Assembly: GCF_009914755.1 (NCBI RefSeq)
Contig: NC_060927.1
Origin: the human T2T-CHM13v2.0 reference genome, Homo sapiens
Reading direction: 5' to 3' (one strand)
Length of the DNA stretch: 64,000 nucleotides
In this document: positions 34,603-37,600 of the stretch, in pieces
How the letters are laid out: each line of letters opens with the position of its first letter
Position numbering within the stretch: the first letter of the stretch is position 1
Position numbers and translations under genes: made by a program
The notes under the pieces: generated by a model
Database searches by the model: none
The model's input: the letters and a program-made list of their open reading frames with translations, nothing else
What the model was told of the DNA's origin: nothing

Positions 34603-37600
34603 GATCGTCTGAAGCCTTCTTCTCTCAACTCGTCAAAGTCATTCTCCATCCAGCTTTCTTCTGTTGCTGGTGAGGAACTGCGTTCCTTTGGAGGACGAGA
34701 GGTGCTCTGCTTTTTAGAGTTTCCAGTTTTTCTGCTCTGTTTTTTCCCCATCTTTGTGGTTTTATCTACTTTTGGTCTTTGATGATGGTGATGTACAGAT
34801 GGGTTTTTTGGTGTGGATGTCCTTTCTGTTTGTTAGTTTTCCTTCTAACAGACAGGACCCTCAGCTGCAGGTCTGCTGGAGTACCCGGCCGTATGAGGTG
34901 TCAGTCTGCCCCTGTTGGGGGGTGCCTCCCAGTTAGGCTGCTTGGGGGTCAGGGGTCAGGGACCCACTTGAGGAGGCAGTCTGCCCGTTCTCAGATCTCC
35001 AGCTGCGTGCTGGGAGAACCACTGCTCTCTTCAAACCTCAGATGGCTATGGGAGGACATTCAAATCAAAGGAAAAGAAGTTGAGAACTTTGAAAAAAATT
35101 TAGAAGAATGTATAACTAGAATAACCAATACAGAGAAGTGCTTAAAGGAGCTGATGGAGCTGAAAACCAAGGCTCGAGAACTACGTGAGGAATGCAGAAG
35201 CCTCAGGAGCCAATGCGATCAACTGGAAGAAAGGGTATCAGCGATAGAAGATGAAATGAATGAAATGAAGCGAGAAGGGAAGTTTAGAGAAAAAAGAATA
35301 AAAAGAAACGAGCAAAGCCTCCAAGAAATATGGGACTCTGTGAAAAGACCAAATCTACGTCTGATTGATGTACCTGAAAGTCACAAGGAGAATGGAACCA
35401 AGTTGGAAAACACTCTGCAGGATATTATCCAGGAGAACTTCCCCAATCTAGCAAGGCAGGCCAACATTCAGATTCAGGAAATACAGAGAACACCACAAAG
35501 ATACTCCTTGAGAAGAGCAACTCCAAGACACATAATTGTCAGATTCACCAAAGTTGAAATGAAGGAAAAAATGTTAAGGGCAGCCAGACAGAAAGGTCGG
35601 GTTACCCTCAAAGGGTAACAGCAGACTAACAGCAGATCTCTCGGCAGAAACTCTACAGGCCAGAAGAGAGTGGGGGCCAATATTCAACATTCTTAAGGAA
35701 AAGAATTTTCAACCCAGAATTTCATATCCAGCCAAACTAAGCTTCATAAGTGAAGGATAAATAAAATCCTTTACAGACAAGCAAATGCTCAGAGATTTTT
35801 GTCACCACCAGGCCTGCCCTAAAAGAGCTCCTGAAGGAAGCGCTAAACATGGAAAGAAACAACCGGTACCAGCCGCTGCAAAATCATGCCAAAAAGTAAA
35901 GACCATCAAGACTAGGAAGAAACTGCATCAACTAACGAGCAAAATAACCAGCTAACATCATAATGACAGGATCAAATTCACACATAACAATATTAACTTT
36001 AAATGTAAATGGACTAAATGCTCCAATTAAAAGACACAGACTGGCAAATTGGATGAAGAGTCAAGACCCATCAGTGTGCTGTATTCAGGAAACCCATCTC
36101 ACAGGCAGAGACACACATAGGCTCAAATTAAAGGACGGAGGAAGATCTACTAAGCAAATGGAAAACAAAAAAAGGCAGGGGTTGCAATCCTAGTCTCTGA
36201 TAAAACAGACTTTAAACCAACAAAGATCAAAAGAGACAAAGAACGCCATTACTTAATGGTAAAGGGATCAATTCAACAAGAGCTAACTATCCTAAATATA
36301 TATGCACCCAATACAAGAGCACCCAGAATCATAAAGCAAGTCCTGAGTGACCTACAAAGAGACTTAGACTCCCACACAGTAATAATGGGAGACTTTAACA
36401 CCCCACTGTCAACATTAGACAGATCAATGAGACAGAAAATCAACAAGGATACCCAGGAATTGAACTCAGCTCTGCACCAAGCGGACCTAATAGACATCTA
36501 CAGAACTCTCCACCCCAAATCAACAGAATATACATTTTTTTCAGCACCACACCTATTCCAAAATTGACCACGTACTTGGAAGTAAAGCTTTCCTCAGCAA
36601 ATGTAAAAGAACAGAAATTATAACAAACTATCTCTCAGACCATAGTGCAATCAAACTAGAATTCAGGATTAAGAATCTCACTCAAAACCGCTCAACTACA
36701 TGGAACTGAACAACCTGCTCCTCAATGACTACTGGGTACATAACGAAATGAAGACACAAATAAAGATGTTCTTTGAAACCAACGAGAACAAAGACACAAC
36801 ATACCAGAATCTCTGGGACACATTCAAAGTTGTGTGTAGAGGGAAATTTATAGCACTAAATGCCCACAAGAGAAAGCAGGAAAGATCCAAAATTGACACC
36901 CTAACATGACAATTAAAAGATCTAGAAAAGAGCAAACACATTCAAAAGCTAGCAGAAGGCAAGAAATAACTAAGATCAGAGCAGAACTGAAGGAAATAGA
37001 GACACAAAAAACCCTTCAAAAATTTAACAAATCCAGGAGCTGGTTTTTTGAAAGGATCAACAAAATTGACAGACCACTAGCAAGACTAATAAAGAAAAAA
37101 AGAGAGAAGAATCAAATAGACACAATAAAAAATGATAAAGGGGATATCACCACCGATCCCACAGAAATACAAACTACCATCAGAGAATACTACAAACACC
37201 TCTATGCAAATAAACTGCAAAATCTAGAAAAAATGGATAAATTCCTCGACACATACACTCTCCCAAGACTAAACCAGGAAGAAGTTGAATCTCTGAATAG
37301 ACCAATAACAGGAGCTGAAATTGTGGCAATAATCAATAGCTTACCAACGAAAAAGAGTCCAGACCAGATGGATTCACAGCCGAATTCTACCAGAGGTGCA
37401 AGGAGGAACTGGTACCATTCCTTCTGAAACTATTCCAATCAACAGAAAAAGAGGGAATCCTCCCTAACTCATTTTATGAGGCCAGCATCATCCTGATACC
37501 AAAGCCGGGCAGAGACACAACCAAAAAAGAGAATTTTAGACCAATATCCCTGATTAACACTGATGCAAAAATCCTCAATAAAATACTGGCAAACCGAATC

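What the first reader, a model, noticed from the sequence alone, without database searches (positions are those of the whole stretch)
34990..35060. Inverted 5' segment of the young L1 carries a spliced-5'UTR junction (SpIRE97/622-like)
Seen: the apparent filler at the inversion junction, + strand ...ctcttcaaa-c-ctcagatgg-ctatggg, reads CCATCTGAG-G-TTTGAAGAG on the - strand. Recalled knowledge: in L1HS/L1PA2-3, CCATCTGAG|GTACC is the splice donor near nt 97 and TCTGACAG|CTTTGAAGAG is the acceptor near nt 622. Joining them gives CCATCTGAG-CTTTGAAGAG, the SpIRE97/622 junction (Larson et al. 2018). The observed sequence differs by one base (C>G). Inference: this copy came from a spliced L1 RNA lacking ~0.5 kb of 5'UTR, including the antisense promoter, was also twin-primed, and stopped 9 nt past the splice junction. 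With so little exon-1 sequence, inverted and mismatched, junction searches would probably miss it.
Basis: partly seen in the sequence, partly recalled or inferred. Interest (0 to 1): 0.8.

Follow-up and report, generated by a model that had tools for sequence, protein, structure and literature searches.

The report
Inverted, truncated spliced L1 copy (SpIRE97/622)
An old, dead L1 retrotransposon in a KCNH8 intron was copied from a spliced L1 RNA and flipped at its front end during insertion, so it is an unlisted but ordinary member of a known class.

Summary

On the minus strand, window 35045-35037 reads CCATCTGAG. These are the last 9 nt before the L1 5'UTR splice donor (nt 89-97). They directly abut L1 nt 622, the first base after the A620G621 acceptor. 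The only difference from the canonical junction is G instead of C at 35036.

The whole element lies between 16-bp target-site duplications (34587-34602 and 39998-40013):
- an inverted arm, L1 nt 622 to about 1059
- a 9-nt loss at the inversion point
- a direct arm, from about nt 1069 to a TAA-rich tail

TTT:AAA complementarity sits at the internal priming site. This is the textbook twin-priming layout.

The same 24-mer junction (one mismatch or fewer) occurs 83 times in this assembly. The G variant occurs only here. The locus is absent from Larson et al. 2018 S1 Table, whose 100-nt probe could not detect a 9-nt exon-1 remnant.

The copy lacks the 129-bp L1PA3/PA4 segment, is about 2.9% diverged and has no intact ORF.

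Verdict: a new member of a known kind, of low to moderate interest.

A side lead: all three inverted SpIRE-type copies found keep 11 nt or less of exon 1.

The parts
34587..34602 (+). 5' target-site duplication, gaaaattattttcttt (16 bp). Its last TTT is shared with the reverse complement of L1 AAA at the internal priming site.
   Evidence: It matches 39998-40013 at 15 of 16 positions.
34603..35036 (-). Inverted L1 arm. The - strand reads L1 nt 622 to about 1057-1059: the 3' part of the 5'UTR plus the first ~150 nt of ORF1. It lacks the 129-bp L1PA3/PA4 segment.
   Evidence: 424/440 identical to L001; 94-97% to 30+ other copies. The 434-nt length equals the short 5'UTR form.
35036..35036 (-). 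First exon-2 base (nt 622). It reads G where L1 and the SpIRE copies read C.
   Evidence: The G variant of the 24-mer junction is unique in the genome.
35037..35045 (-). Exon-1 remnant CCATCTGAG (L1 nt 89-97), the last 9 nt before donor G98U99. The base at 35045 is ambiguous with the direct arm.
   Evidence: 9/9 to exon 1.
35046..39973 (+). Direct L1 arm, from about L1 nt 1067-1069 in ORF1 to the 3' UTR end. There is no intact ORF1 or ORF2; the longest ORF is 286 aa.
   Evidence: 61/66 to L001 at its start; 31 of 1057 positions differ from the column majority.
39974..39997 (+). Degenerate A-rich / (TAA)n tail.
39998..40013 (+). 3' target-site duplication, gaaaattactttcttt.

Best explanation
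An L1 RNA of the post-129-bp-deletion lineage (late L1PA3 or L1PA2 in look) had its 5'UTR intron removed, from donor G98U99 to acceptor A620G621. That joined nt 97 to nt 622.

Proposed sequence of events:
1. The RNA was inserted by target-primed reverse transcription into an older L1 inside a KCNH8 intron. The inferred bottom-strand nick is 5'-TTTC/C.
2. The first cDNA ran from the poly(A) tail up to about nt 1069.
3. The second, top-strand nick left a ...TTTCTTT-3'OH end. This paired with AAA at about nt 1057-1059 of the same RNA and primed a second cDNA (twin priming).
4. The second cDNA crossed the exon-exon junction and ended 8-9 nt into exon 1, at nt 89.
5. The two cDNA ends were joined with 1 nt of microhomology. 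This gave an inverted 5' arm, a 9-nt loss at the inversion point and 16-bp TSDs.
6. The C at nt 622 later changed to G. Alternatively, the G was already in the template, or it arose as a reverse transcriptase error.

What is shown and what is inferred:
- Shown: the junction sequence, the arm boundaries, the TSDs and the microhomologies.
- Inferred: the order of events and the timing of the C>G change.

With 9 nt of exon 1 and no promoter, the copy was dead on arrival.
For: **Splice sites.** Donor and acceptor sequences are the same in 8 of 8 full-length L1s. Their positions are given in PMC5860796 section 6.

**Alignment.** In the 31 comparison rows of the alignment (21 SpIRE, 10 unspliced), the locus takes the same 2-column gap as all 21 SpIRE rows. 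None of the 10 unspliced rows has that gap.

**The junction is a recurrent product.**
- The canonical 24-mer junction occurs at 83 places with one mismatch or fewer: 53 exact and 30 with one mismatch. The reversed-pattern control gave 0.
- The one-mismatch copies carry scattered single substitutions. One has C>T at the same base (C7:84999726).

**The C>G change is plausible for this copy.** It has two other private C>G changes in the 434-nt arm (columns 387 and 425). Its overall divergence is 2.9%.

**Twin-priming hallmarks.**

**No local template.** There is no second copy of the 9-mer in 64 kb on either strand.

**Sibling architectures.** L035 (C6:80665645) keeps an 11-nt remnant and L099 (C9:7870125) a 5-6-nt remnant. 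Each has antisense L1 directly upstream of the remnant.
Against: **The junction is not exact.** It matches at 23 of 24 positions.

**The extra G fits unspliced L1 too.** With the G, the sequence is an 11/11 match to unspliced nt 89-99 (CCATCTGAGGT). A jump from nt 623/624 to nt 98/99 with 1 nt of microhomology would need no mutation at all.

**C>G at 622 is rare in unspliced copies.** It occurs in 5 copies against 2564 with C.

**No G622 source lineage was found.** The two short-form G622 copies (L040, L041) share none of this copy's private changes.

**Orthologues could not be read.**
Confidence: 0.85

Rival explanations
1. Non-splice template jump. During twin priming, the second cDNA left an unspliced L1 RNA at nt 623/624 and resumed at nt 98/99 of the same or another L1 RNA, using a shared T. 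It copied 10-11 nt (CCATCTGAGGT), then was joined to the first cDNA.
For: CCATCTGAGGT is an 11/11 match to unspliced L1 nt 89-99 (BLAST hit q66-76 = subject 1501-1511 in all 8 loci). No substitution is needed.
Against: Both endpoints would have to fall within 2 nt of the one donor and one acceptor that produced 82 other copies in this genome. For unconstrained endpoints I estimate this at about 1e-5 (my estimate, not a tool result). No canonical splice signal fits the shifted join: the excised stretch would begin TA or AC and end GC or CT (read). The exact variant 24-mer occurs nowhere else in the genome.
Confidence: 0.06
2. Second-generation copy. The template was a transcript of an already integrated SpIRE97/622, for example one driven by a host promoter, rather than a freshly spliced L1 RNA.
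For: PMC13174262 (passages) reports that the RAP1GDS1-intron SpIRE (L027 here) became a source through the host promoter. L027 is among the closer copies: 96.1% and 95.8% identity.
Against: Larson et al. conclude that SpIREs are generally dead ends (abstract). No SpIRE examined shares this copy's private changes. Identity to L027 is not distinct from identity to many others. With only 9 nt of exon 1 retained, any upstream host exon would have been lost, so this cannot be decided here.
Confidence: 0.07
3. Contiguous unspliced 5'UTR that was damaged. The arm runs on to about nt 614 (TCTGACAGC). A CA deletion and a C>G change then gave TCTGAGG, preceded by 3-4 nt of filler.
For: Two unspliced copies (L097 and L101) show exactly such a CA deletion, giving TGTCTGAGCTTTG. 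TCTGA is shared by nt 92-96 and nt 614-618.
Against: It needs a rare 2-nt deletion (2 copies, against the 2564 unspliced copies), plus the rare C>G (5 copies, against those 2564), plus a filler that happens to read CCA as in exon 1 rather than CTG.
Confidence: 0.01
4. Chance or untemplated filler at an inversion junction that merely resembles exon 1.
For: Short fillers do occur at L1 5' junctions: many rows of Larson's S1 Table list 1-23 untemplated nt.
Against: A 9/9 match in fixed register has probability 3.8e-6. In addition, the arm ends exactly at the acceptor.
Confidence: 0.01

Closest known systems
SpIRE97/622 (Larson et al. 2018, PLoS Biol, PMC5860796)
   Same: The same donor (G98U99) and acceptor (A620G621) join. 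It has L1 hallmarks (TSDs, A-rich tail, EN-like site). Its age falls within the L1PA1-PA6 range. It lies in a gene intron, as do 39% of the listed copies.
   Different: Only 8-9 nt of exon 1 survive. The junction-bearing arm is inverted. There is one substitution at the first exon-2 base. The locus is not among the 116 listed: the chr3 rows are 12027816, 23296226, 24078852, 24280028, 43939962, 57606726, 135822428 and 159084831.
Twin-primed (5'-inverted) L1 insertions (Ostertag and Kazazian 2001; seen only as reference 4, model recalled)
   Same: An inverted 5' arm and a direct 3' arm inside one TSD pair. A small (9-nt) loss at the inversion point. Complementarity (TTT:AAA) between the target 3' end and the internal priming site. 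Microhomology at the arm join.
   Different: The inverted arm crosses a splice junction, so the template can be identified as spliced RNA.
Sibling copies in the same genome: L035 (C6:80665645) and L099 (C9:7870125)
   Same: A SpIRE97/622 junction preceded by a very short exon-1 remnant (11 nt or less; 5-6 nt). Antisense L1 ORF2 sequence lies directly upstream: 94% and 97% identity over 195 nt.
   Different: Their junctions are canonical (C at 622). Their direct arms start much further 3', at about nt 2720 and about nt 4970. L035 carries the 129-bp form. TSDs were not examined. L099's 5-6-nt remnant could also come from an L097-type CA deletion.
Plain 5'-truncated SpIRE-type copies L050 (C10:39521060) and L052 (C10:60281884)
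   Same: A canonical junction with a short exon-1 remnant (18 and 17 nt). I found no row for them in Larson's table, judging by approximate coordinates.
   Different: Not inverted. Non-L1 sequence lies upstream, which looks alpha-satellite-like for L050 (label recalled).

Membership tests
SpIRE97/622 | L1 nt 97 joined directly to nt 622 (use of SD G98U99 and SA A620G621) | tested here: met
   23 of 24 positions match the canonical junction. The locus aligns with 21 of 21 SpIRE copies. The one mismatch is C>G at nt 622.
SpIRE97/622 | No intron sequence (nt 98-621) between the two exons | tested here: inconclusive
   Nothing beyond a single G lies between GAG and TTTGAAG. That G is either a mutated C622 or G98.
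SpIRE97/622 | TPRT hallmarks: TSDs, 3' A-rich tail, EN-like cleavage site | tested here: met
   16-bp TSDs matching at 15 of 16 positions, a TAA-rich tail, and an inferred TTTC/C site.
SpIRE97/622 | Belongs to L1PA1-L1PA6 | tested here: met
   Short 5'UTR form without the 129-bp segment. It differs from the column majority at 2.9% of positions, against 1.4-2.8% for the copies I labelled PA3. I assigned subfamily labels by matching T2T places to Larson's hg38 rows, which is an inference.
SpIRE97/622 | Operational criterion: >95% identity to the 100-nt probe (nt 47-97 + 622-672), annotated as near full length | tested here: not met
   Only 9 of the 51 exon-1 probe bases are present. This is a detection criterion rather than a biological one, and it explains the absence from S1 Table.
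Twin-primed L1 inversion | 5' arm inverted relative to the 3' arm, both inside one TSD pair | tested here: met
Twin-primed L1 inversion | Arms meet in L1 coordinates with only a small deletion or duplication | tested here: met
   The inverted arm ends at L001 position 2471 and the direct arm starts at 2481, so 9 nt are missing.
Twin-primed L1 inversion | Complementarity between the top-strand target 3' end and the L1 RNA at the internal priming site | tested here: met
   The TSD ends in TTT, and the L1 sense strand reads GATCAAA at the arm end.

The most novel reading that the evidence does not exclude
L1 reverse transcription may stop non-randomly a few to about 18 nt upstream of an exon-exon junction.

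**Evidence for a pile-up.**
- All 3 inverted SpIRE97/622-type copies found keep 11 nt or less of the 97-nt exon 1. Under a uniform null this has probability (11/97)^3 = 0.0015, computed post hoc.
- Two plain truncations keep 17-18 nt.
- 5' ends at nt 80-89 occur in 4 of 83 junction-bearing copies, against 0 of 100 unspliced chr1 copies conditioned on the same bases (Fisher p = 0.04).

**Possible mechanism.** A roadblock such as an exon-junction complex left on the 5'UTR of the spliced L1 RNA could stall ORF2p. The EJC position of about 20-24 nt upstream of the junction is recalled, not from a call. EJC proteins co-purify with L1 RNPs in an RNase-sensitive way (PMC5821459, passages). If so, truncated SpIREs would be a fossil footprint of an RNP roadblock during TPRT.

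**Weaknesses.** The numbers are small and the test is post hoc. The control is unmatched: it used exact 23-mers on chr1 only.
Probability: 0.1. Interest if true: 0.6.

Novelty: new member of a known kind. Interest (0 to 1): 0.3.

Why it matters
This locus adds one unlisted member to a described class, and it shows in a single locus that spliced L1 RNA can be twin-primed.

The practical point is that published SpIRE counts are lower bounds. A 24-mer or 23-mer junction search of this T2T assembly found at least five copies with 18 nt or less of exon 1: this locus, L035, L050, L052 and L099. A 100-nt probe cannot detect any of them.

The copy has no promoter and no intact ORF. I see no evidence that it affects KCNH8.

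The possible pile-up of cDNA ends just upstream of the splice junction is the only lead here that could open a new question.

Tried and rejected
1. **Local donor for the 9-mer.** There is none in 64 kb on either strand.
2. **A source lineage already carrying G at nt 622.**
   - 5 unspliced copies carry it against 2564 with C.
   - I fetched all 5. Only the two short-form copies (L040, L041) entered the alignment.
   - They share none of this copy's private changes; the only shared state is a common polymorphism (column 435).
   - The three others (L042-L044) are the 129-bp form, at 88-94% identity, and were dropped by the 400-nt length filter.
3. **A CA-deletion mimic.** L097 and L101 are real examples of such a deletion, but the model does not fit the CCA upstream of TCTGAG here.
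4. **The flanks as an older twin-primed L1.** Rejected.
   - The left flank is an old antisense L1 that resumes at about 41521.
   - The right flank, from about 40025 to 41400, is a separate old sense L1 3' fragment.
   - The structure is therefore three nested L1 insertions.
6. **Exon-1 starts that first looked truncated.** By eye, L013, L085, L008 and L120 are internal duplications or deletions, and L036 is a mutated full-length end. I dropped them from the truncation counts.
7. **Print searches.** I searched for a twin-primed or 5'-truncated SpIRE ('SpIRE' plus 'twin priming', 8 papers, 6 listed). I also read passages of Larson et al.. I found no description of one beyond two table rows noting inversions in near-full-length copies (SpIRE-52 and SpIRE-100). 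bioRxiv supplements and papers outside the library were not seen.

Full report
**What is in the sequence**

Read on the minus strand, window 35052..35022 is CCCATAG CCATCTGAG G TTTGAAGAGAGCAG. From TTTGAAGAG onward, the minus strand is L1 5'UTR and then ORF1, down to window 34603. It is 424/440 identical to a full-length L1 5' end from the same genome (L001) and 94-97% identical to some 30 other copies.

On the plus strand from 35045/35046, the sequence is L1 ORF1 again, continuing 3'-ward (61/66 to L001). It runs to the L1 3' end and a TAA-rich tail ending at 39997.

In L001 coordinates the inverted arm ends at 2471 and the direct arm begins at 2481, so 9 nt of L1 are missing at the inversion point.

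The 16-mer gaaaattattttcttt (34587-34602) recurs as gaaaattactttcttt (39998-40013) immediately after the tail. The last TTT of the left copy is also the reverse complement of the AAA that ends the inverted arm (GATCAAA in the L1 sense).

**Where the 9 nt come from**

I fetched 8 full-length L1 5' ends from the window's own assembly. All 8 read TTTCCATCTGAG|GTACCGGG at the donor and CTGTCTGACAG|CTTTGAAGAGAGCAG at the acceptor.

Larson et al. 2018 (PMC5860796; I read sections 6, 7, 8 and 21, passages of 16 and 23, and the whole of S1 Table) define SpIRE97/622 as the product of SD G98U99 and SA A620G621 in L1.3 numbering. The window's CCATCTGAG is thus nt 89-97, directly abutting nt 622. The single difference is G for C at 622.

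The junction was aligned with 21 SpIRE97/622 copies and 10 unspliced copies. It takes the same gap as all 21 SpIREs and none of the unspliced rows. It departs from the SpIREs only upstream of CCATCTGAG, where the reverse complement of the direct arm begins.

**Is it more than chance?**

The 9-mer occurring once in 64 kb is not unusual in itself (0.59 expected). A 9/9 match in fixed register next to the acceptor has probability 3.8e-6.

There is no other copy of the 9-mer in the window to serve as a local template.

**Recurrence in the genome**

- The canonical 24-mer junction occurs at 83 places with one mismatch or fewer: 53 exact and 30 with one mismatch. The reversed-pattern control gave 0.
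- The 30 one-mismatch copies carry scattered single substitutions, one of them C>T at the very same base.
- The G variant is unique to this locus.

**The one-base problem**

With the G, the sequence is also an 11/11 match to unspliced nt 89-99 (CCATCTGAGGT). A jump from nt 623/624 to nt 98/99 would therefore need no mutation.

Against that rival:
- Both endpoints would have to fall within 2 nt of the one donor and acceptor pair that generated 82 other copies.
- No canonical splice signal fits the shifted join.

Points bearing on a C>G substitution:
- For it: this copy has two other private C>G changes in the 434-nt arm, and it differs from the column majority at 31 of 1057 positions.
- Against it: C>G at 622 is rare in unspliced copies, 5 against 2564 with C.
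- Against a source lineage already carrying G622: the two short-form G622 copies share none of this copy's private changes.

I put the spliced-template reading at about 0.85 and the non-splice jump at about 0.06.

A CA deletion in unspliced L1 can mimic TCTGAG|CTTTG, and L097 and L101 are real examples. It does not explain the CCA upstream here.

**Mechanism**

The layout is that of twin priming (model recalled; the paper was seen only as reference 4).
1. Bottom-strand nick, inferred as TTTC/C.
2. First cDNA runs from the tail to about nt 1069.
3. The top-strand 3' end ...TTTCTTT pairs with AAA at about nt 1057-1059.
4. The second cDNA runs through nt 622, across the exon junction, to nt 89.
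5. The ends are joined with 1 nt of microhomology.

The sequence features are shown. The order of events is inferred.

Whether the spliced RNA was fresh or came from a resident SpIRE cannot be told. One SpIRE is reported to have become a source through a host promoter (PMC13174262, passages).

**Age and state**

The arm lacks the 129-bp segment of L1PA3/PA4 that was lost toward L1PA2/PA1. Its divergence of 2.9% lies just above the range of the copies I labelled PA3 (1.4-2.8%). I assigned those labels by matching T2T places to Larson's hg38 rows, which is an inference.

No ORF longer than 286 aa survives.

**Is it listed?**

Larson's S1 Table has eight chr3 SpIRE97/622 rows. The nearest are 12.03 and 23.30 Mb, and there are none for the other classes near 19.5 Mb.

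The T2T-to-hg38 offset at the chr3 12-Mb row is a few kb (one search place compared span). The locus is therefore not listed. Their probe needed >95% identity over 100 nt.

A text search for 'SpIRE' plus 'twin priming' gave 8 papers, 6 listed. In the passages I read, none describes a truncated inverted SpIRE.

**Beyond the finding**

I measured the exon-1 extent in all 83 junction copies. I then inspected by eye the 10 with the shortest exon-1 alignments.
- After dropping three that are not true truncations (L013 and L085 are internal duplications; L036 is a mutated full-length end), eight are truncated within exon 1.
- Their 5' ends are at nt 18, 21, 31, 39, 80, 81, 87 and 89.
- A 5+18 nt search (64 places) added 5 places not in the first set:
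  - two older full-exon SpIREs
  - the two CA-deletion mimics
  - L099, with a 5-6-nt remnant

Antisense L1 lies directly upstream of the remnant only in this locus, L035 and L099. All three inverted copies keep 11 nt or less of exon 1.

As a control I took 100 unspliced copies, the first 100 places listed, all on chr1 with an exact 23-mer.
- Four of the 100 had an exon-1 start above nt 12.
- Two of those were dropped as an internal deletion or duplication (L008, L120).
- That left two true truncations, at about nt 14 and 21, and none at nt 80-89.

Fisher tests gave p = 0.04 for 4/83 against 0/100, and p = 0.026 for 8/83 against 2/100. These tests are post hoc, the numbers are small and the control is unmatched. 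I record this as a lead only. A roadblock such as an exon-junction complex is one possible cause, and EJC proteins do co-purify with L1 RNPs (PMC5821459, passages).

**Verdict**

The thing is a new, previously unlisted member of a known class, combined with a known insertion variant.

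Noticed in passing
window 33500-34602, 40014-41400 and about 41521-41587: The insertion site is a nest of three L1 generations. An old antisense L1 (73% identical to the young one) is interrupted at about L1 nt 1718 and resumes at about 41521. Between lie the twin-primed copy and a separate old sense L1 3' fragment (79% identical, about L1 nt 4630-5890). The young copy landed within about 11 bp of that fragment's 5' end.
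   Followed up: partly
L035 (G000:C6:80665645), L099 (G000:C9:7870125): Two more inverted SpIRE97/622-type copies, with 11 nt or less and 5-6 nt of exon 1. In L035 the arm join appears to lie in a 6-7-nt microhomology (TTCCAT); the ORF2 side of that comparison is recalled. I found no row for L035 in Larson's S1 Table; L099 was not checked against it.
   Followed up: partly
L050 (G000:C10:39521060), L052 (G000:C10:60281884): Plain 5'-truncated SpIRE-type copies keeping 18 and 17 nt of exon 1. L050 sits in satellite-like sequence near the chr10 centromere (label recalled). I found no row for either in S1 Table.
   Followed up: partly
L097 (G000:C5:50652613), L101 (G000:C19:25243374): Two unspliced L1 copies, identical over the 150 nt printed upstream of the junction, with a CA deletion at the acceptor (TCTGA[CA]GCTTTG). 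They mimic a SpIRE junction for any k-mer with 6 nt or fewer of exon 1. They are probably one event copied by duplication.
   Followed up: no
L015, L016, L017 (G000:C1:121324184, 144089982, 205597410): Three copies of what looks like one SpIRE, at places that I recall as the SRGAP2 paralogues. Larson's table lists only the SRGAP2B row. A T2T census would count segmental duplicates separately.
   Followed up: no
window 35038-35042: The hub's repeat-mask list breaks between 35037 and 35043. The masker thus left 5 nt of the exon-1 remnant unmasked, as if it were non-L1 filler.
   Followed up: no
window 34779-35618 (+): A 279-aa ORF (TTG start) spans the inversion junction. It is a mechanical by-product of antisense 5'UTR fused to sense ORF1, and there is no evidence of a gene.
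   Followed up: no
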